From: a virus
Virus genome (UHGV): UHGV-1570564
Length of the DNA stretch: 24,254 nt
Strand: one strand, 5' to 3'
Under the pieces are notes generated by a model that worked only from the letters and a program-made list of their open reading frames with translations, ran no database searches and was not told where the DNA came from. Position numbers and translations under genes: made by a program. Of this stretch, positions 13,005 to 24,254 are shown one piece after another; position 1 is the first letter of the stretch, and the number at the start of each line of letters is the position of its first letter.

Positions 13005-13294
13005 TATTTAATCTCCATGATAGAAGAAGAAACTCTAGAGTACATTACATACTCGACACTGGTTTTATCAGAAAGTCTTTTTTCTGCATCTGAAAAATCA
13101 CTGGTTGCCACAAACAAACACTTTGCACCAGGAATATGTGATATTAATTTTTCACACTCTGGAGATAAGCCATTCTTAAATAGTTTATGCTTCAAAATTG
13201 AGAGTTGAGGGATTGTTGGCCCTATATATACAAATGTTTGAGCAACATCTTCCTTCTTTTCTATATCTTCTTTACTACTTTTCTTATTAGCCAT
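13004..13294 (-). CDS. Hypothetical protein (96 aa), Lys/Glu-rich N-terminus, directly upstream of the sheath gene
   Basis: ORF with start/stop overlap to the sheath gene; AT-rich; no motif I can assign. Confidence 0.4.
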   Translation of the reverse strand: MANKKSSKEDIEKKEDVAQTFVYIGPTIPQLSILKHKLFKNGLSPECEKLISHIPGAKCLFVATSDFSDAEKRLSDKTSVEYVMYSRVSSSIMEIK

Positions 13295-13780
13295 TTAGAT
13301 AAACTCCTGAGACTGAATATTCTGAGGCTTTAATACTAGCCACGTTCCAGTTGCTTCCGTTATCCAATATGGATATGGTTGATCATCAAACATTCGCCAT
13401 CTGATATCACCCTGAAAGAGAAATTTCTCTTCAAGTAAAGGCTTCTCCTGAAAATGAAACATCATCCTTTCAAGAAGAGCCATTACCCATTCATATCCAG
13501 TATGGTCCTCACAAAAACCACCTAGAAGAAACTTAACCTTAACTTCATCCGTTTCAGGCTGCATTCCTCCTTCCGTGGGCCTGATAATCACATGAGGAAA
13601 TTCTGGCGGTTTATCTGGAGATGGTTGTGATTTAGGAGGCAAGTACCCTTTAAATATTGTTGGAACAAACAATTTAATATCGCTGTCTGTTTCATCATAA
13701 GGAGGCCCCTGCACTAATAAATCATGGAAAACCTCATGTTCCAACCGATTTTTTATTGCATCTATCAAAAGATTAATCAA
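13295..13780 (-). CDS. Hypothetical protein (161 aa), possible neck/tail completion protein
   Basis: Position between the head-tail connector ORF and the tail sheath gene; translationally coupled (overlap 13777-13780). Function by synteny only. Confidence 0.4.
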   Translation of the reverse strand: MINLLIDAIKNRLEHEVFHDLLVQGPPYDETDSDIKLFVPTIFKGYLPPKSQPSPDKPPEFPHVIIRPTEGGMQPETDEVKVKFLLGGFCEDHTGYEWVMALLERMMFHFQEKPLLEEKFLFQGDIRWRMFDDQPYPYWITEATGTWLVLKPQNIQSQEFI

Positions 13781-14121
13781 ATCGGCATTCCTCTGTTAGT
13801 ATTAACAGTGAGAGTTATTTCCAATACACCAACATTATCTGATACTTCATCAACAATATAATTTTTACCGTTGATTTTCATTGACTGGTCTTTGACAGGG
13901 AGAACAGGAAAATCTTTTCTTGAAACAAATAATATTATTTGCCCCTGATTTATTCCCTCTGCAAACTCAGCATATGAGCGTTTATTCCGCTCATGAATAA
14001 GGTCTGTATCAATAACGGCAAGGATATCCTTGCCGTCTATGTTATATGTATCGGCAAACTCTTTTTCATTGAGGAATATTGCAGAAATATCTTGCGCTAT
14101 AACCTCTTTGAAGGAGTTCAT
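13777..14121 (-). CDS. Putative head-tail joining / head closure protein (114 aa, lambda FII-like placement)
   Basis: Size and position downstream of the capsid gene; C-terminal NGKNYIVDEVSDNVGVLEITL pattern loosely resembles head-tail adaptor proteins. Confidence 0.45.
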   Translation of the reverse strand: MNSFKEVIAQDISAIFLNEKEFADTYNIDGKDILAVIDTDLIHERNKRSYAEFAEGINQGQIILFVSRKDFPVLPVKDQSMKINGKNYIVDEVSDNVGVLEITLTVNTNRGMPI

Positions 14122-18849: not shown

Positions 18850-20706
18850 CTATATGGTTACGCCTTTACTTATAACTCTACGGCGTCTTCTACGTATACC
18901 TGACGAGTTCTGCACATACACATTACCTCGCATTTCCTGTTCGGCAAGCCAGTTAAAATTAGGGTTCAGAATTTCCATCGCGGCAGTTGCATAGTTACGG
19001 CAATCAAGAGGCTCGTTACGCTCGTAGACTTTCACCCACTTTTCTTTTGTCTGCCCATTTTTATATTCAAATATTTTTTTCTCTGATAATAATCCTTTAA
19101 AGTATTCGGTATCATATCCTCTGTCAGAATCTAATGGGAAATGCATATAACCAGGACCAGGATCATGTAGTTTAATTCTTGCCATGATGGTCCCTTTACC
19201 ATCATCAACCCCCAAATTAAACAACATAGCACCCACACGGTTATTATTACTTGGCTTTCCTATAAATGGTAAACCTACCCCACCACGCCCCCTGATAGAG
19301 TATATTCGCCTTGATTCTCTCGGCTTAGTAAAGCGATATACCTCTGTCGTAAAATGCCCACCAGAGTCAATACAAACGGAAGAAATCTGTAATTTTCGAC
19401 CGTCACGGAATGACCAGCTACGGAGTAAGTATTCATCAAGTTGTTTCCAGACAACATCTTGTGCGGGATCACCTGGGAATATTTTATATTCTATCCCCCA
19501 TGACTCCTTACCTTTTCCCCAACCGACCAATTCACAAACTAAATACGTGTCCTGTACGTCAACACCAGCACTTAACAATAAAACATCATCTGGTAAAAAC
19601 TCTTCAAACCTTATTCTGCGTTGCAACAAGTATTCAGGATCGATATCGTCTTTAGCATCCTCTTTCCATGGCTCACCCAGCTTAAGGTTAATAAACTCCA
19701 TTAATCCATTTTTATCGCGGTTTCTGGTTGCTTCCGTAAATTCTTCAACCAGCTCTGACAATGCAACCCACGGGGAGTAAAGACTGTTAATATGAAAACC
19801 AACAATACCTTTAACTCCAGTATGTTCAGCTATCCATACCCCCTTCGCCAACCAATCAACGTCTGGTTTACCAGATCCGCGCATAATCCCGCCGCACTCA
19901 CAGCACTCATATCTGGCCGTTTCCGGTAACGCCTCACCTGAATCGCTCTTATCCCATCTGACTTGCGACCATTTCATCACCTGCATGGTGCCACAACATG
20001 GGCAAGGAACATGGTAGTAACGCTGATCGGAGAGCTTAAACCACTTGTGGATTTTGCTTGTTTCCTCCAAAACAGGAGTAGAAACAAAAACTTTCTTACG
20101 ATTATGAAAGTTGGTAGTACGCTGAATACCTAGTTTTAGTGGGTCGCCCTCCTGCGTCACACCGTAACGATCAATCTCATCAGCTAACAGTATTCGAATT
20201 GGCCTGGATGCAAGACCTGCTGGGGAATTAGCACCAACAAGTGCTATATATCCACCAGCGTAATGCTTCATACGTATAGTCGTGCTGGACTTTTTGGCTG
20301 CACCGCGCCCCTCTTTCCCTTCATGCAGCTTGTGTTTCAAACCAGGGGAATATTTGAACGTCGGATCAATACGCTCTTTTGAAAAAGCCTCAGCCGCCTC
20401 TACCGTTGGATAAATCATCAACTGAGGAGATGGCTCCTGATCTGCAAAGTAACCCATAACATTTAGCTGTAATTCGGATTTACCAATTTGCGAGCTACAT
20501 TGCATCACTACTGTTTCTGTATCAGCGTCACCAATAACATCCATTGGTTCACGCAAATATGGCACTCGGCTTGTACGCCACGGCCCTGGCTCTGGAGACG
20601 TTCCCGGCGCTACATGACGATACTTATCAGCCCATTCGGAAACAGTTAGCCGTGATTTAGGGCGAAGCGCACGGAAAAAAGCGGTGCTCCATACTGTTTC
20701 GCCCAT
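18850..20706 (-). CDS. Terminase large subunit, lambda GpA type (618 aa)
   Basis: Size and N-terminus (..RLTVSEWADKYR..) consistent with GpA-family terminases; followed by gpW-like and lambda-family portal genes. Confidence 0.85.
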   Translation of the reverse strand: MGETVWSTAFFRALRPKSRLTVSEWADKYRHVAPGTSPEPGPWRTSRVPYLREPMDVIGDADTETVVMQCSSQIGKSELQLNVMGYFADQEPSPQLMIYPTVEAAEAFSKERIDPTFKYSPGLKHKLHEGKEGRGAAKKSSTTIRMKHYAGGYIALVGANSPAGLASRPIRILLADEIDRYGVTQEGDPLKLGIQRTTNFHNRKKVFVSTPVLEETSKIHKWFKLSDQRYYHVPCPCCGTMQVMKWSQVRWDKSDSGEALPETARYECCECGGIMRGSGKPDVDWLAKGVWIAEHTGVKGIVGFHINSLYSPWVALSELVEEFTEATRNRDKNGLMEFINLKLGEPWKEDAKDDIDPEYLLQRRIRFEEFLPDDVLLLSAGVDVQDTYLVCELVGWGKGKESWGIEYKIFPGDPAQDVVWKQLDEYLLRSWSFRDGRKLQISSVCIDSGGHFTTEVYRFTKPRESRRIYSIRGRGGVGLPFIGKPSNNNRVGAMLFNLGVDDGKGTIMARIKLHDPGPGYMHFPLDSDRGYDTEYFKGLLSEKKIFEYKNGQTKEKWVKVYERNEPLDCRNYATAAMEILNPNFNWLAEQEMRGNVYVQNSSGIRRRRRRVISKGVTI

Positions 20707-20711
20707 GAGGT

Positions 20712-21263
20712 TTATTCTTCCTGCTTAATAAATCGGGATTCCTGGAGCGCCTGAAGCGCAAAATTAATCTCGTCTTCAATAATGCGCTCGATCTCCCTGG
20801 CTGTTTTGCCTTCACAACGGGGAGCTGCTCTTGGAGCAATACTAAATAAGCGGCTACGCAATTCATTAGCTGCCAGAAATGCATCATCCCTGACCGCATC
20901 TTTAGCGATGAGAGAGCCTTCCTTTTCTTCAAATTCAAGGCGTTTCAGCTTTGCCTGATAAATTTTTTCTGCGGTCTTAGCCTTGTTGAATTGCACCGCA
21001 ACACCGGAAGTACCACCAGCTAATCCGGCATCATCAGCGGGTAACTCTGGTTGTTCCGAAGATATCCCATGCCCTCTTTTTCCATTTTCAGCAGATACCT
21101 CACGACCAACCTGTCGGCTCGCTTCATAAGCCGCACTGGCTTTATCAAAATCCAGCTTGCCGCTTTTCAGCACTGGAATGCGACCGGAACGACAGAGCTT
21201 CGTAACCATTGCCGGAGAAATACCTTTCCGGCGGGCAAACTCTGACTTACTGACGATGGCCAT
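20712..21263 (-). CDS. Terminase small subunit, Nu1-like with N-terminal helix-turn-helix
   Basis: MAIVSKSEFARRKGISPAMVTKLCRSGRIPVLKSGK parallels the lambda Nu1 N-terminus. Preferred start is ATG 21263..21261, overlapping the ParB-like stop as TAATG; the ORF track start at 21272 is a TTG. Confidence 0.7.
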   Translation of the reverse strand: MAIVSKSEFARRKGISPAMVTKLCRSGRIPVLKSGKLDFDKASAAYEASRQVGREVSAENGKRGHGISSEQPELPADDAGLAGGTSGVAVQFNKAKTAEKIYQAKLKRLEFEEKEGSLIAKDAVRDDAFLAANELRSRLFSIAPRAAPRCEGKTAREIERIIEDEINFALQALQESRFIKQEE

Positions 21264-21853
21264 TACTTGCAACCATTAGCAAGATACTGAACAAATCCCT
21301 CATGCGTTTCATGCGCGTCGTGGTACTGACGATAAACATCCAGCAACAATGCAATTTCCATATCCGTCGCGGGAATACGTTCTTTATCAATAGCCAGGTA
21401 CTTAATTTGAACAACAGGGGAAGAATTATCGTCTTCTTCCTGCGGCTGTTCATCGCTTAACATTTCGTCAAGCTCTGCATCATTAAACCCAAGCAGATCA
21501 ATATCAAAATCATCATCCATTAACTCTTTGACTTCTTCGGCCAGAAGCTGCATATCCCAGCCAGCATTTAAGGCCAGCTTGTTATCTGCAATCCTGTAAG
21601 CCTTCTTCTGTTTTTCAGAAAGGTTACTCAACCGAATCGCCGGAACTTTATCCATTTCCAGAATTTCGGCTGCTGCAAGCCGCCCATGCCCCGCAATCAG
21701 TTCATTCTTTTCATCGATCAGCACAGGATTAGTGAAACCGAACTCACGGATACTGTTCACCAACTGTTCAACTTGCTCATCTGAATGAGTCCGTGAATTT
21801 TTGGCATATCTGAGCAACTTACCGACTGGTAAATATTCGATTTTTAGAGCCAT
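21263..21853 (-). CDS. ParB-like nuclease-domain (ParB/Srx fold) protein, standalone, 196 aa
   Basis: NSRTHSDEQVEQLVNSIREFGFTNPVLIDEKNELIAGHGRLAAAEILEMDKVPA matches the ParB N-terminal domain signature (..GHGRL.AA..); acidic C-terminal half; stop overlaps the small terminase start. Confidence 0.75.
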   Translation of the reverse strand: MALKIEYLPVGKLLRYAKNSRTHSDEQVEQLVNSIREFGFTNPVLIDEKNELIAGHGRLAAAEILEMDKVPAIRLSNLSEKQKKAYRIADNKLALNAGWDMQLLAEEVKELMDDDFDIDLLGFNDAELDEMLSDEQPQEEDDNSSPVVQIKYLAIDKERIPATDMEIALLLDVYRQYHDAHETHEGFVQYLANGCK

Positions 21854-22409
21854 TTTTTAACCGCCATAACACAACAGGTTAAAGAAAACTGTTTAACTTA
21901 TTGATACTAAAAGAGAAAAATGACGATCTTTTTACTCATAAAAAATCACACAAACCAGCATAATTATCTGATTTTATTAAGTTTTTATAAGTAAAAAGGA
22001 TCTTGCGATGGTGTTTTGGTTAAAAGATTGGATGTATTTGCATGATTTATAACGATTTTTATCAGAACAACATCACATTGGTTAAAGATCTGCGCGTATC
22101 TTGATGATCTAAAAGAAAATTTTCCACTTTCTTCTTACCAGCACAAATACAGAAAAAATCACGTTTTCCCGATATTTTTCAATGAGATGAGTAAATTTCT
22201 TTTACCGCAACTTTTAACCTAACTTTTTTCACGTTTAGCTAGCCGAATATCGGGGTTCGAATGACCCGCATCCAACGCTTTTGGCCAGAAGGACCCAATT
22301 CTGCCGGACGATGAAACGATGCTCGTGCTCCCCCACAGACAGCCAGCGAGCGACGCTACAGAACACAGTGAATACACCCTGCATAACAACACCATCAACC
22401 ACACGATGA
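21854..22409 (-). promoter_or_regulatory. AT-rich non-coding region upstream of the ParB-terminase-head-tail operon; candidate late promoter and/or packaging (cos) region
   Basis: About 550 bp with no convincing ORF. Repeated motifs: GGTTAAAGA-like at 21877-21885, 22018-22027, 22080-22088; AAAAAATCAC at 21940-21949 and 22153-22162; four GATC sites between 21925 and 22109. No specific -35/-10 pair could be assigned with confidence. Confidence 0.35.
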
Positions 22410-23129
22410 TTAACGAGAGAACGTCTTAGAAAGGATGTCATCAATAGCCTTTGTGACTTCATCAGCAAACGCATCCTCACCAGCACGCAGCGCCACGCCA
22501 TGCCAATCAAGACGCTGCGAATAGTTAGGTTGCTGGATGAACGTAAGGATCAACGTAGGACGCCGCCCAACGCGCTGCCAGACGCCTGGTTGAAGCGGGT
22601 TACTTGTACCAGGTCGAACAACAAAAAACTCCGTAGGCTTGCCCTGACGGCGATTTTGATGCGCATCTCGCTGAACTCTTAGGCCAGATAAGACCTGCTG
22701 TAATTGCCCCCGCGAAATATTCCCGTATTTGTCCAGCTTTGCGCCGGGACCAGGAGCAAGCTGCCAGCCGTTAGGCAAATATCCACCAGCCCTTAGCGCC
22801 CCTTCTGAGCGTTTGTACTGTCGTTGGCCGCCTTCGATTTGCGGAGTCAACGTTACAGGGGCTGGCGTTCCACCCCATTCACGAGCATACACAATGGCTG
22901 TAGGATCACTCTTCTTTGCGGCCAAAACGTAAGTAGAGTTCTGAATCCACGGCGTGGGCCTGTCAAATACCCGATTAATTTCATTCTTAATCGCAGCCTG
23001 AGAAGCCTTTGCCGTTCTGGTTGCCGCAAGCGCCATTGCGAACGGCAATTCGCGTTCTTCAAGGCGCTGGAGTTGTCGTTGAATATCCTGAGAAGAAAAA
23101 TCCATCTTTATCTCAATTCTGTCAGCCAC
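22410..23129 (-). CDS. Hypothetical protein (239 aa), Arg/Gln/Gly-rich, no cysteine; downstream partner of the methyltransferase-fold gene
   Basis: ORF with GTG start at 23129..23127 preceded by AGGAGG (23140..23135) at 5-nt spacing, 16 nt after the upstream gene's stop; no recognisable catalytic or structural motif. Confidence 0.5.
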   Translation of the reverse strand: MADRIEIKMDFSSQDIQRQLQRLEERELPFAMALAATRTAKASQAAIKNEINRVFDRPTPWIQNSTYVLAAKKSDPTAIVYAREWGGTPAPVTLTPQIEGGQRQYKRSEGALRAGGYLPNGWQLAPGPGAKLDKYGNISRGQLQQVLSGLRVQRDAHQNRRQGKPTEFFVVRPGTSNPLQPGVWQRVGRRPTLILTFIQQPNYSQRLDWHGVALRAGEDAFADEVTKAIDDILSKTFSR

Positions 23130-23145
23130 CAGCGCCTCCTACACA

Positions 23146-24219
23146 CTACTTAATCAACGGCCGGAAAGCCGCCAGCACATCATCAGATCGTCCGATTGTT
23201 GAACCACCAGGCAACGGCAACTCAAACTCAAAACGAACAGCTTTCTCCAGACTCGCCCAACTAAGGGAATCATCGTTAATGACGTGCAAATACCAGCTCT
23301 TACAGTTGAATATTGACCGCTTAATCCTGAAACCATGTACACGACACAACTGCTTCACTTCCTCATCAGAGTGAAACTTCTGGTAAAACCAGTGCCCCTT
23401 CCGGTACAACGCGGTAAAACCGTCATGATCAATAAAATAAAGCCGGCTTTTGGAACTCGCCGCTTGTGTTTGCTTCAGGACTGTTTCCAGTTCTCCACGG
23501 CTACGGCCAGAAAAGAATATTGACCCACCAGCTTTACACAGGCCTTTCAGAACCGTCAGAACGGACCATTCAGCCTCGACACTATCGACCGAGTTCAAAA
23601 CGCTATCGCAAATCACGTAGTCGTAACGCCCTCGCGTTTTTAAGTCGTCCACCAGCGTATCAATCATCCGGTTTGTTGCGGCCCTATCCAGAGTGTTTCC
23701 AGCGCCCTTACGGCGGAAAAGCTCGAGATCATGCAGGTTATATCCCTTTGCCCTGAGCATTCGCGCGTAGTCTCCCTGCCCCGAACCAAAATCAATTCCT
23801 CTTGGCGTCTTGGCAATGATCGGGAGGATCAACGACTCATACAGATTTGATTTCAGGCTGCCACCATTACGCAACCGCATAAGCTGCGCATACGTCTGGA
23901 TGTATGTTGTTTTCTCCAGATGAGAATACTCAAATACACCATAAGTTTTATTCAGATAACTTTGGTATTTTTCCTTCTCAACATCAGGGATCACAAACAC
24001 CGTTAGCGGTGTGCGCGTCATTTTCGCTGCTAATGCATACTGAGCACAGTGAATAACCTCACCAGACTGAGTAGCAACACAACCACCCCACGGACCATAC
24101 TTGATAACCAGTTCCGCTATGTTCTTTCGAACATATGCCATTTTCGCGCGCATATTGCCTGAGATCTGGCTTGCCGATACCTGAACAAAACCATGCTTAT
24201 GAAGCAATACATTCAACAT
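23146..24219 (-). CDS. Class I SAM-dependent methyltransferase-fold protein with ~135-aa N-terminal extension (357 aa); substrate unknown
   Basis: Motif I-like GIDFGSGQGDYARML, acidic residue in ..GYNLHDLELF.., and YDYVICDSVL / GGSIFFSG segments typical of Rossmann-fold methyltransferases. No (D/N/S)PP(Y/F/W) or PCQ/ENV motifs of canonical DNA methyltransferases. Confidence 0.6.
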   Translation of the reverse strand: MLNVLLHKHGFVQVSASQISGNMRAKMAYVRKNIAELVIKYGPWGGCVATQSGEVIHCAQYALAAKMTRTPLTVFVIPDVEKEKYQSYLNKTYGVFEYSHLEKTTYIQTYAQLMRLRNGGSLKSNLYESLILPIIAKTPRGIDFGSGQGDYARMLRAKGYNLHDLELFRRKGAGNTLDRAATNRMIDTLVDDLKTRGRYDYVICDSVLNSVDSVEAEWSVLTVLKGLCKAGGSIFFSGRSRGELETVLKQTQAASSKSRLYFIDHDGFTALYRKGHWFYQKFHSDEEVKQLCRVHGFRIKRSIFNCKSWYLHVINDDSLSWASLEKAVRFEFELPLPGGSTIGRSDDVLAAFRPLIK

Positions 24220-24254
24220 CAGCGTGGCTGATCACCTTTCGGGCTTTTCAAGCC

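What the first reader, a model, noticed from the sequence alone, without database searches (positions are those of the whole stretch)
21854..22409. 550-bp AT-rich non-coding region with repeated short motifs and a GATC cluster upstream of the late operon
This is the only sizeable non-coding stretch in the window. It contains three GGTTAAAGA-like copies (21877, 22018, 22080), two AAAAAATCAC copies (21940, 22153) and four GATC sites within about 185 bp. Such repeats are what one expects for binding sites of a late activator, of the small terminase (cosB-like), or for Dam-sensitive regulation. The last ~190 bp (22219-22409) is GC-richer and may belong to the upstream cassette as its 3' UTR or terminator.
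Basis: seen in the sequence. Interest (0 to 1): 0.45.

Follow-up and report, generated by a model that had tools for sequence, protein, structure and literature searches.

The report
Lambda-type cos site of a phage-plasmid
The non-coding stretch is the cohesive-end (cos) packaging site of a ~48 kb E. coli phage-plasmid, built like phage lambda's cos: a termination signal, a staggered cut site giving 12-nt sticky ends, and an AT-rich arm of repeated protein-binding motifs. It is an ordinary, well-understood kind of element that had simply not been annotated here.

Summary
In detail: 21854-22409 is the intergenic gap upstream (minus strand) of a ParB-like gene, TerS and a gpA-type TerL, and the motifs and GATC sites are where stated. 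The region is a lambda-type cos site. On the minus strand, GGGTCCT (22296-22290) lies at -30 to -24 from a CG|GG junction, exactly as cosQ does in the lambda record. GenBank records of near-identical Yersinia phages open at 22267|22266 (vB_YpM_39, vB_YpM_41) or 12 nt further on (vB_YpM_44). Homologous Vibrio phages X29 (ends reported as physical), XM1 and R19R, and two metagenomic contigs, end at the same place. The cohesive end is therefore GGTCATTCGAAC (22266-22255). The cosQ-cosN core is essentially invariant in 12 relatives. The AT-rich 21854-22254 part sits where cosB would. It carries about eight GGTWAAAAG-type sites in both orientations and a conserved IHF-like site, and these are better conserved than their surroundings (0.86 against 0.53). 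Three of the four GATC are extensions of motif copies and only two are conserved. A viable phage lacks 22040-22129. The GC-richer end is cosQ/cosN, not a 3' UTR. No promoter, terminator, RNA family or origin was found. This is a new member of a known kind, of low interest.

The parts
22290..22296 (-). cosQ-like heptamer GGGTCCT (packaging-termination signal)
   Evidence: It lies at -30 to -24 from the nick, the same sequence and spacing as in the lambda record NC_001416. It is invariant in 12 relatives and in Vibrio phages X29 and XM1. Feiss et al. 2015 (PMC4669245) describe the 7-bp cosQ as highly conserved.
22255..22266 (-). cosN: 12-nt cohesive-end sequence GGTCATTCGAAC. Nicks are inferred at 22267|22266 (minus strand) and 22254|22255 (plus strand).
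   Evidence: Yersinia phage records vB_YpM_39 and vB_YpM_41 end ...GGATGCG and start GGTCATTCGAAC. vB_YpM_44 ends ...GCGGGTCATTCGAAC and starts CCCGATG. The termini of X29, XM1, R19R and of contigs L106 and L108 are homologous. The X29 ends are reported as physical ends (PMC5690320).
22223..22254 (-). Conserved spacer between cosN and the first repeat (CCCGATATTCGGCTAGCTAAACG...), in the position of lambda's I2 segment
   Evidence: The block is 0.79 identical to the Salmonella-type lineage. TTCG.CTAGCTA is shared with the Vibrio phages, and TTTCGCTA lies at the same offset in lambda.
22211..22219 (-). Repeat F1, GGTTAAAAG (forward with respect to the late genes)
   Evidence: Identical in all 12 relatives. 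The first GTTAACAC copy of X29 and XM1 occupies the same position.
22198..22206 (-). Repeat F2, GGTAAAAGA
   Evidence: Conserved as GGTAAAAAG in the Salmonella-type lineage.
22131..22139 (-). Repeat F3, GGTAAGAAG (GGTAAAAAG in most relatives)
22080..22088 (+).
   Evidence: TTTAACC is conserved across lineages, but the site lies in the 90-bp segment deleted in viable phage vB_YpM_44, so it is dispensable.
22018..22027 (+).
   Evidence: Partly conserved (0.72).
21990..22002 (+). Repeat R3, AGTAAAAAG, followed by GATC at 21999
   Evidence: GATCCTTTTTA is conserved in 11 of 12 relatives.
21961..21973 (-). IHF-like site AATCAGATAATTA (WATCARNNNNTTR) with an A/T-rich tract on its 5' side
   Evidence: The consensus positions are kept while the N positions vary between lineages (ATAA, ATGA, ACAA, TCAA, TCGA). 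IHF binding itself was not tested.
21925..21936 (-). Repeat F4, AGTAAAAAG, followed by GATC at 21925
   Evidence: GGTAAAAAGAT is conserved; the GATC is kept in 10 of 12 relatives.
21877..21885 (+).
   Evidence: Conserved as GGTAAAAGA in the Salmonella-type lineage (0.90).
22040..22129 (.). Segment dispensable for phage viability (natural 90-bp deletion in Yersinia phage vB_YpM_44)
   Evidence: Alignment. The deletion removes R1 and the GATC sites at 22087 and 22106.
22297..22409 (-). Variable spacer between the stop codon of the 239-aa gene and cosQ
   Evidence: Only 0.35 identical between lineages, with indels. No terminator is predicted.
21263..21853 (-). ParB-like (ParB_N) gene, the first gene after cos
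   Evidence: Pfam PF02195 and phrog_620. The same position, between cos and TerS, is seen in X29, XM1 and R19R.
20712..21272 (-). Small terminase (TerS) with an N-terminal Cox/excisionase-type HTH; the presumed cosB binder
   Evidence: phrog_57 at E=7e-42. 43% identical to X29 TerS. Phage_Cox, HTH_17 and P2 Cox (4LHF) hits fall on residues about 3-39.
18850..20706 (-). Large terminase, lambda gpA family (ATPase plus endonuclease); the presumed cosN nickase
   Evidence: PF05876 at 7e-76 and PF20454 at 1e-84.

Best explanation
The region is the cos (cohesive-end) DNA-packaging site of a ~48 kb myovirus-type phage-plasmid, organised like phage lambda's cosQ-cosN-cosB.

Read on the minus strand, which is the direction of the late genes, the order is:
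1. cosQ, GGGTCCT (22296-22290).
2. 23 bp of spacer.
3. cosN, where the gpA-family large terminase makes two nicks 12 bp apart: 22267|22266 on the minus strand and 22254|22255 on the plus strand. This leaves the cohesive end GGTCATTCGAAC.
4. A conserved spacer.
5. An unusually long (~370 bp) AT-rich cosB-like arm (22219-21877) with about eight GGTWAAAAG-type sites in both orientations and an IHF-like bending site.

Proposed mechanism. On concatemers made after induction, the small terminase (20712-21272, N-terminal HTH) binds the repeats. Bending by IHF and/or A-tracts folds the arm, which places TerL on cosN. DNA is then packaged starting from the cosB side, towards decreasing window coordinates. 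The next cosQ-cosN is needed to cut and terminate.

Shown here: the sequence homology and spacing relative to lambda; the coincidence with the record and virion ends of near-identical and homologous phages; the 12-nt offset; and the conservation pattern.

Inferred: which protein binds the repeats; the role of IHF; the 5' polarity of the overhang; and the direction of packaging.

Late transcription most likely reads through the site from upstream, as in lambda.
For: 1. Context. The gap is followed by ParB-like, TerS (phrog_57, 7e-42), gpA-type TerL, a head-tail adaptor and a lambda-type portal.
2. Match to lambda. Anchored on the nick, the window has GGGTCCT at -30 to -24 and CG|GG at the cut, exactly as in lambda NC_001416. 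The Salmonella plasmids, X29 and XM1 do too. Gapless identity to lambda over -40 to +45 is 30/85 against 21.1+-4 in shuffles (P=0.017); for XM1 it is 42/85.
3. Termini. Yersinia phages vB_YpM_39 and vB_YpM_41, 97-98% identical to the window here, open at 22267|22266, and vB_YpM_44 opens exactly 12 nt later. X29, XM1 and R19R end at the homologous place, 10-12 nt apart, and XM1 carries the 12-mer at both ends. The X29 paper states that its ends are physical, seen as steep coverage drop-offs. IMG/VR contigs L106 and L108 start at the same GGT.
4. Conservation. Identity to the Salmonella-type lineage is 0.99 in the 12-mer, 0.92 in 22267-22298, 0.35 upstream of cosQ and 0.44-0.70 in the AT-rich arm. 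The core is invariant in 12 relatives apart from a 1-nt C-run deletion just after the 12-mer in one Salmonella plasmid.
5. Repeats. GGTTAAA occurs 5 times here and 0 times in the other 23.7 kb of the window, and 5 of 15 copies in the whole 48.5 kb plasmid lie here. Sites are 0.86 identical against 0.53 outside them. In X29, 5 of the 9 forward GTTAACAS sites in 41.6 kb lie in the 120 nt after the end.
6. Architecture. R sites in both orientations plus an IHF site is the published lambda cosB design (PMC4669245).
7. Other candidates. The plasmid's repA and parA lie about 15-24 kb away.
Against: - No experiment or raw-read analysis was available for this exact element. The ends are inferred from GenBank record boundaries, and the Yersinia records are labelled circular.
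- The cohesive-end sequence shares only 3 of 12 bases with lambda's. The base pair after the 12-mer is CC, not the conserved CG.
- TerS has no detectable sequence similarity to lambda Nu1 (E=0.41).
- Unbiased repeat statistics are not significant in this AT-rich DNA. My list of eight sites was partly drawn up while looking at the alignment.
- A viable phage lacks 90 bp of the arm, including one repeat, so not all sites are needed.
- A ParB-like gene lies between the arm and TerS. Its product, rather than TerS, might bind the repeats.
Confidence: 0.88

Rival explanations
1. The GGTWAAAAG array is bound not by TerS but by the ParB-like protein encoded immediately downstream. It would be a parS-like loading or nucleation site acting in packaging, cos protection or cos cleavage, with TerS recognising only the cosN-proximal part. 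The cos assignment itself stands under this reading.
For: The ParB-like gene is always the first gene after cos in the E. coli, Salmonella and Vibrio relatives. 18 of 80 IMG/VR contigs with a homologue end 13-313 nt upstream of it. Its C-terminal third diverges between lineages that have different repeats.
Against: The protein has only a ParB_N domain and no recognisable HTH. TerS does have an N-terminal HTH, like other cos-binding small terminases. Only 29 of 160 homologue loci show a gpA-type TerL nearby. No binding data exist.
Confidence: 0.2
2. The AT-rich part is, or also contains, the late promoter with binding sites for a late activator that drives the head-and-tail operon.
For: It lies directly upstream of a >20 kb co-oriented late operon. 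It is AT-rich and has repeated motifs.
Against: No sigma-70-like promoter was found on either strand, against 2.1 expected. In the Vibrio relatives the equivalent space is only 140 bp and is filled by the repeat array. All genes upstream, from the lysis cassette on, are co-oriented with no predicted terminator, so read-through as in lambda suffices. Activator-dependent promoters would escape the scan, so this reading is not excluded, and it is compatible with cos.
Confidence: 0.12
3. The GATC cluster makes the region a Dam-methylation-sensitive switch, controlling packaging or transcription by hemimethylation.
For: Four GATC in 185 bp against 0.9 expected (P=0.005). Two of them (21925, 21999) are conserved across lineages. 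The element encodes adenine methyltransferases.
Against: Three of the four GATC are the 3' extension of repeat copies (GGTTAAAGATC, GTAAAAAGGATC, GTAAAAAGATC). GATC 22087 is mutated in vB_YpM_39, GATC 22106 is mutated in vB_YpM_41, and both are deleted in vB_YpM_44 and absent from the Salmonella-type lineage.
Confidence: 0.07
4. The region is a replication origin (plasmid or lytic) or the plasmid's partition centromere: an AT-rich stretch with iteron-like repeats, GATC sites and an IHF site.
For: Its composition and repeat content resemble iteron origins, and the element is a plasmid in 71 of 72 E. coli genomes.
Against: repA, with its adjacent non-coding gap, and parA lie about 23 and 15 kb away in the full plasmid. 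The repeat array travels with the packaging module into Vibrio phages that have a different, O/DnaC-type replication module. Its position directly next to cosN is conserved.
Confidence: 0.04
5. The region encodes a small RNA or a small protein.
For: ORFs of 61 and 91 aa overlap 22219-22510 on the minus strand.
Against: No Rfam family matches at E<=1 and there is no tRNA. The ORFs have no Pfam hits, span cosN, and lie in a stretch with indels and 0.35 identity between lineages.
Confidence: 0.02

Closest known systems
Phage lambda cos (cosQ-cosN-cosB; terminase gpNu1/gpA)
   Same: - The same GGGTCCT heptamer at -30 to -24 from the nick, and the same CG|GG at the first nick.
- A 12-nt stagger.
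- A similar TTTCG.CTA element just after the overhang.
- A downstream arm with repeats in both orientations and an IHF-type site.
- A gpA-family TerL, and lambda-type portal, protease, decoration and capsid gene order (PMC4669245).
   Different: - The cohesive end shares only 3 of 12 bases with lambda's, and CC rather than CG follows it.
- The cosB-like arm is about 370 bp with about 8 sites, against 120 bp with 3 R sites in lambda.
- TerS is not detectably related to Nu1.
- An extra ParB-like gene lies between cosB and TerS.
- The tail module is P2/Mu-like and contractile.
- The element is maintained as a plasmid.
Termini of Vibrio phages X29, phi 2, vB_VpaM_XM1, R19R and Rostov 7 (proposed family 'Weiviridae', PMC11432961)
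   Same: Homologous cosQ, nick position, spacer (CCCCG..TTCG.CTAGCTA) and gene order ParB-like, TerS, TerL. Identities are about 49-50% for ParB-like, 43% for TerS and 63-65% for TerL. X29's ends are documented as physical.
   Different: The overhang is GGTGCTCGCGAC. The repeat is GTTAACAC/G, in five direct copies within about 90 bp, and the whole arm is only 140 bp. These phages have integrases and an O/DnaC-type replication module rather than repA/parA.
Phage-plasmid N15 cos (lambda-like ends, 'simple' cosB)
   Same: Both are phage-plasmids that package from a lambda-type cosQ-cosN with a gpA-family terminase (PMC4669245).
   Different: N15's cohesive end differs from lambda's at only 2 of 12 positions, and its cosB has a single critical TerS site (PMC4669245). 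Here the end is highly divergent and the arm is long and multi-site. N15 is a linear plasmid and a siphovirus (my own knowledge). I did not compare N15 sequence directly.

Membership tests
lambda-type cos site (cosQ-cosN-cosB) | Lies next to the terminase genes of a phage with a gpA-family large terminase | tested here: met
   TerL matches PF05876 at 7e-76 and PF20454 at 1e-84. TerS matches phrog_57 at 7e-42. The portal matches PF05136.
lambda-type cos site (cosQ-cosN-cosB) | The ends of virion DNA map to the site | tested here: met
   This is indirect evidence. The record ends of vB_YpM_39, vB_YpM_41 and vB_YpM_44 (97-98% identical here), and those of homologous X29, XM1 and R19R and contigs L106 and L108, all fall at 22267|22266 or 10-12 nt after it. 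X29's ends are stated to be physical. No raw reads were examined for this element.
lambda-type cos site (cosQ-cosN-cosB) | 7-bp cosQ (GGGTCCT) upstream of cosN at a fixed distance | tested here: met
   Identical heptamer and identical -30 to -24 spacing as in NC_001416. Invariant in 12 relatives.
lambda-type cos site (cosQ-cosN-cosB) | 12-nt stagger between the nicks | tested here: met
   Exactly 12 nt separate the start of the vB_YpM_44 record from the starts of vB_YpM_39 and vB_YpM_41. XM1 carries a 12-nt terminal duplication.
lambda-type cos site (cosQ-cosN-cosB) | The overhang is 5'-protruding | not testable with these tools
   It is only suggested, by XM1's record carrying the 12-mer at both ends plus a stray A, as end-repair of a 5' overhang would leave.
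lambda-type cos site (cosQ-cosN-cosB) | Conserved CG dinucleotides flanking both nick positions (PMC4669245) | tested here: inconclusive
   The left flank is CG|GG, as in lambda. The right flank is AC|CC instead of CT|CG.
lambda-type cos site (cosQ-cosN-cosB) | cosB: several TerS-binding repeats in both orientations with an IHF site between them | tested here: inconclusive
   The sequence features are present and preferentially conserved. Protein binding cannot be tested here, and unbiased repeat statistics are not significant.
'lambda-like phages' in the sense of Feiss et al. [quoted passage not shown] | Cohesive-end sequence similar to GGGCGGCGACCT | tested here: not met
   GGTCATTCGAAC shares 3 of 12 positions with it, and 3 of 6 in the left half that is under selection.
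'lambda-like phages' in the sense of Feiss et al. [quoted passage not shown] | Small terminase of the Nu1 family | tested here: not met
   BLASTP against lambda Nu1 gives E=0.41. No Phage_Nu1 Pfam hit. An N-terminal HTH of Cox/excisionase type is present.
Iteron-type plasmid origin or parS centromere | Adjacent to, or functionally paired with, the plasmid's Rep or ParA/ParB genes | tested here: not met
   In the full plasmid NZ_CP009073.1, repA is at 13069-14049 and parA at 21388-22041, while this region is at 37250-37806.

The most novel reading that the evidence does not exclude
The ParB-like protein encoded between the repeat arm and TerS is a third, so far unrecognised component of a widespread class of cos packaging systems. 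It would load on the GGTWAAAAG (or, in Vibrio phages, GTTAACAC) array as ParB loads on parS, and would organise, protect or help cleave cos. The long AT-rich arm would then be a hybrid of a centromere-like site and cosB.
Probability: 0.15. Interest if true: 0.6.

Novelty: new member of a known kind. Interest (0 to 1): 0.25.

Why it matters
It gives this common phage-plasmid family an exact genome start, a packaging mechanism (cos, not headful) and a cohesive-end sequence. The family is present in about 1.3% of complete E. coli genomes, including the reference strain ATCC 25922, and in Salmonella, Klebsiella and Escherichia relatives. It has also been isolated as Yersinia-infecting phages.

- A cos packager is a poor generalised transducer but can mobilise any replicon that carries its cos. 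That bears on how these elements spread genes.
- The site could be used for cosmid-like vectors or for detecting induced particles.
- It extends the lambda cosQ-cosN design, with identical spacing, to phages whose cohesive ends and small terminases are otherwise unrelated to lambda's.

Tried and rejected
- Degenerate ~200-bp tandem duplication, suggested by repeat spacings of 202-215 bp. The local alignment score was 25 against 18.7+-2.6 in shuffles (maximum 35), so I rejected it.
- RNA genes. Rfam at E<=1 and ARAGORN found nothing.
- Promoters and terminators. No promoter was found. The one terminator-like hit lies outside the gap, on the plus strand inside a gene.
- Small ORFs in the gap have no family hits and are not conserved.
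- Plasmid origin or centromere. The rep and par genes are far away.
- I first guessed the element belonged to the pSLy3 phage-plasmid group. The literature places pSLy3 in the SSU5 supergroup, whose persistent tail genes are described as siphovirus-like, so I dropped the idea without a sequence comparison.
- Unbiased over-representation tests for the repeat were not significant in this AT-rich DNA. I therefore rest the case for the repeats on conservation and on the Vibrio analogue.
- TerS against lambda Nu1 and against the PDB as a single sequence gave nothing. A profile gave only weak HTH matches.
- A perfect IHF consensus at 21894-21906 is not conserved in the Salmonella-type lineage, so I gave it little weight. 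The conserved site at 21961-21973 fits only the looser WATCAR consensus.
- A 14-nt overhang with symmetric CG flanks was considered. No record boundary supports it.
- A-tract phasing is only weak, with autocorrelation peaks of 0.17, 0.06 and 0.10-0.11 at lags 11, 21 and 31-32.
- No paper was found on the Yersinia phages or on a packaging role for ParB-like proteins.
Full report
**What is in the window.** All large ORFs lie on the minus strand. The finding, 21854-22409, is the gap between a 239-aa ORF (22410-23129; no Pfam hit; phrog_1924) and a run of packaging and head genes read towards lower coordinates. These are a 196-aa ParB_N protein (21263-21853), a 186-aa small terminase (20712-21272; phrog_57, E=7e-42), a lambda gpA-family large terminase (18850-20706), a head-tail adaptor and a lambda-type portal. 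The gap has 0.37 GC overall and 0.30 in 21854-22254, against about 0.45-0.52 in the flanks.

**What the element is.** The same 556 bp occurs at 96-100% identity in 72 of 5,426 complete E. coli genomes. In 71 of them it lies on plasmids of about 47-50 kb, including the plasmid of ATCC 25922. It also occurs in plasmids of E. fergusonii, E. albertii and Klebsiella aerogenes, and at about 70-75% identity in Salmonella plasmids. It is found in Escherichia phage vB_EcoM-613R2 and in Yersinia phages vB_YpM_39, vB_YpM_41 and vB_YpM_44. The element is therefore a phage-plasmid. In the complete plasmid NZ_CP009073.1, repA (13069-14049) and parA (21388-22041) are far from this region (37250-37806). All genes from the lysis cassette through this gap into the head and tail genes point the same way.

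**Checking the observation.**
- GGTTAAAGA at 21877 and 22080, and GGTTAAAAGA at 22018.
- AAAAAATCAC at 21940 and 22153.
- GATC at 21925, 21999, 22087 and 22106.

GGTTAAA also occurs inverted at 21856 and 22213. With local dinucleotide shuffles, GGTTAAA (5 against 0.14 expected; none in the other 23.7 kb of the window) and GATC (4 against 0.9, P=0.005) are enriched. These words were picked after looking, however. Family-wise tests are not significant, because AT-rich shuffles produce equally frequent poly-A words: the maximum exact 7-mer count has P=0.2, and the maximum 8-mer count with one mismatch is 9 against 10.6+-3.5. The case for the repeats therefore rests on conservation, described below. 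A suspected 200-bp duplication was rejected.

**The key result: DNA ends.**
- The circular GenBank records of vB_YpM_41 and vB_YpM_39 end ...GGATGCG and start GGTCATTCGAACCCCGATG. This corresponds to a break at window 22267|22266 on the minus strand.
- vB_YpM_44 ends ...GGATGCGGGTCATTCGAAC and starts CCCGATG, exactly 12 nt further on.
- A TerL search found Vibrio phages (X29, phi 2, XM1, R19R, PVP-XSN, Rostov 7) with 63-65% identical TerL and the same gene order ParB-like, TerS, TerL. Their linear records begin 140-153 bp upstream of the ParB-like gene.
- Their termini align with the window:

| Record | Ends with | Starts with |
|---|---|---|
| X29 | ...GAGCGGGTGCTCGCGA | CCCCGG... |
| R19R | ...GGTGCTCGCG | ACCCCG... 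|
| XM1 | GGTGCTCGCGAC, then a stray A | GGTGCTCGCGACCCCG |

The XM1 pattern is what end-repair of a 5' overhang would leave.
- Two unrelated IMG/VR contigs, L106 and L108, also begin at the homologous GGT.

**Comparison with lambda.** I fetched lambda's own record rather than rely on memory:
- lambda: ...ACGGGTCCTTTCCGGTGATCCGACAGGTTACG|GGGCGGCGACCTCGCGGGTTTTCGCTA
- window, minus strand: ...TTGGGTCCTTCTGGCCAAAAGCGTTGGATGCG|GGTCATTCGAACCCCGATATTCGGCTA

GGGTCCT lies at -30 to -24 from the nick in lambda, the window, the Salmonella plasmids, X29 and XM1, and the cut is CG|GG in all of them. Feiss et al. (PMC4669245) describe cos as cosQ plus cosN plus cosB. In their account the 7-bp cosQ is highly conserved and needed for termination, and CG flanks the nicks. 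The ends are 12-nt 5' extensions, and cosB contains TerS-binding R sites in both orientations with an IHF site between R3 and R2. Over -40 to +45, lambda and the window share 30/85 positions without gaps, against 21.1+-4 in shuffles (P=0.017); lambda and XM1 share 42/85.

In window coordinates:
- cosQ = 22290-22296.
- Cohesive end = 22255-22266.
- Nicks at 22267|22266 (minus strand) and 22254|22255 (plus strand).

**Conservation.** I aligned the E. coli/Yersinia lineage with six Salmonella-type copies whose ParB-like protein is 79-82% identical (L008, L009, L094-L097). Identity by segment:

| Segment | Identity |
|---|---|
| 12-mer | 0.99 |
| 22267-22298 | 0.92 |
| 22197-22254 | 0.79 |
| AT-rich arm | 0.44-0.70 |
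| Upstream of cosQ | 0.35 |

The cosQ-cosN core is invariant in 12 sequences apart from a 1-nt C-run deletion just after the 12-mer in one Salmonella plasmid.

**The AT-rich arm.** Read on the minus strand, it carries GGTWAAAAG-type sites in this order:
- F1 22219-22211, F2 22206-22198 and F3 22139-22131, in the forward orientation.
- R1 22080-22088, R2 22018-22027 and R3 21990-21998, inverted.
- F4 21936-21928, forward.
- R4 21877-21885, inverted.

Positions inside these sites and the IHF-like site are 0.86 identical to the Salmonella-type lineage, against 0.53 outside them.

An IHF-like AATCAGATAATTA (21973-21961) keeps its consensus positions while the N positions vary. In X29, 5 of the 9 forward GTTAACAS sites in 41.6 kb lie in the 120 nt after the end. 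So a repeat array downstream of cosN is a shared feature of this group, while its sequence differs along with the TerS N-terminus, which is only about 40% identical in the HTH region. TerS has an N-terminal Cox/excisionase-type HTH, like other cos-binding small terminases, but shows no detectable similarity to lambda Nu1.

**GATC and the other motif.** Three of the four GATC are the 3' extension of repeat copies: GGTTAAAGATC, GTAAAAAGGATC and GTAAAAAGATC. GATC 21999 and 21925 are kept in 11 and 10 of 12 sequences. GATC 22087 is mutated in vB_YpM_39 and GATC 22106 in vB_YpM_41, and both are absent from the Salmonella-type lineage. vB_YpM_44, a viable phage, lacks 22040-22129 altogether, which removes R1 and both of those GATC. 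The AAAAAATCAC pair is not conserved. A dedicated Dam switch is therefore unlikely, although methylation of the two conserved sites could modulate binding.

**Alternatives.**
- No Rfam family, tRNA, sigma-70-type promoter or terminator was found in the gap, and the small ORFs are not conserved.
- A late promoter that depends on an activator cannot be excluded. It is not needed, however, because upstream genes are co-oriented, as in lambda, where late transcripts cross cos.
- An origin or centromere is unlikely, given where repA and parA lie and given that the array travels with the packaging module into phages with a different replication module.
- The open question is who binds the repeats: TerS, which I favour, or the ParB-like protein that always sits between the arm and TerS. 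Homologues of that protein often lie at the very start of viral contigs (18 of 80). Only 29 of 160 homologue loci show a gpA-type TerL nearby, and I found no literature on a packaging role.

**Verdict.** The region is a lambda-type cos site. Of its interpretations, the cosB-like one is right for the AT-rich part, and the "3' UTR/terminator" reading of the GC-richer part is wrong, because that part is cosQ plus cosN.

By Feiss's narrow definition this is not a "lambda-like" phage: the cohesive end shares 3 of 12 bases with lambda's, there is no Nu1, and CC rather than CG follows the overhang. But it works like lambda's cos and shares cosQ, the spacing, the 12-nt stagger and the gpA terminase. 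It is a new member of a known kind and of modest interest. Its main value is practical, for annotation and for understanding how this common phage-plasmid packages and could mobilise DNA.

Noticed in passing
whole window; L004 (NZ_CP009073.1): The window comes from a ~48 kb myovirus-type phage-plasmid with repA, parA, a RelE/ParE toxin-antitoxin pair, lambda-like head genes and P2/Mu-like tail genes. It is found as a plasmid in 71 of 5,426 complete E. coli genomes, including ATCC 25922. It also occurs in E. fergusonii, E. albertii, Klebsiella aerogenes and Salmonella, and has been isolated as Yersinia pestis-infecting phages vB_YpM_39, vB_YpM_41 and vB_YpM_44. It is not the pSLy3/SSU5 group.
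   Followed up: partly
window 21263-21853 (-); loci L098-L169: A ParB_N-only protein is the first gene after cos in the E. coli, Salmonella and Vibrio relatives. 18 of 80 IMG/VR contigs encoding a homologue end 13-313 nt upstream of it, and two of them (L106, L108) start at the homologous GGT of cosN. A gpA-type TerL is seen in only 29 of 160 homologue loci. The protein's role in packaging, if any, is unknown.
   Followed up: partly
window 22040-22129: Yersinia phage vB_YpM_44 carries a natural 90-bp deletion inside the AT-rich arm. It removes one repeat copy and two GATC sites, and shortens the arm by about 8.6 helical turns, yet the phage was isolated as viable.
   Followed up: yes
L013 (Vibrio phage X29) 40574-40604: A second tight cluster of GTTAACA sites in both orientations lies in an intergenic gap about 1 kb before X29's right end. 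It uses the same core as the five cos-proximal repeats. It may be another binding site for the same protein, or an unrelated operator.
   Followed up: no
window 22410-24254 (-); L004 34517-37249: Directly upstream of cos lies a three-gene cassette: a ParB/Srx-domain protein, a ParB_N-methyltransferase fusion (457 aa in the relatives; cut by the window end), and a 239-aa protein of phrog_1924, annotated 'minor tail protein', which looks doubtful. The element thus carries three ParB_N-domain proteins around cos.
   Followed up: no
window 22297-22409; L008, L009: The spacer between the stop codon of the 239-aa gene and cosQ differs between lineages (0.35 identity, with indels). The Salmonella-type copies have a GC hairpin, CGCCGCGTGTGCGGCG, without a T-run there, and the E. 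coli-type copies do not.
   Followed up: no
L007 and L010 (PP580404.1, Vibrio phage XM1): The deposited XM1 record carries the 12-nt cohesive-end sequence at both ends, followed by a non-templated A at the right end. This is probably an end-repair and A-tailing artefact, which would make the record 13 nt too long.
   Followed up: partly
L004 10150-12887: In the ATCC 25922 plasmid, two opposed tail-fibre-assembly genes, a truncated tail-fibre gene and a 'recombinase family protein' lie next to each other. This layout is typical of an invertible host-range segment. It lies just beyond the low-coordinate end of the window.
   Followed up: no
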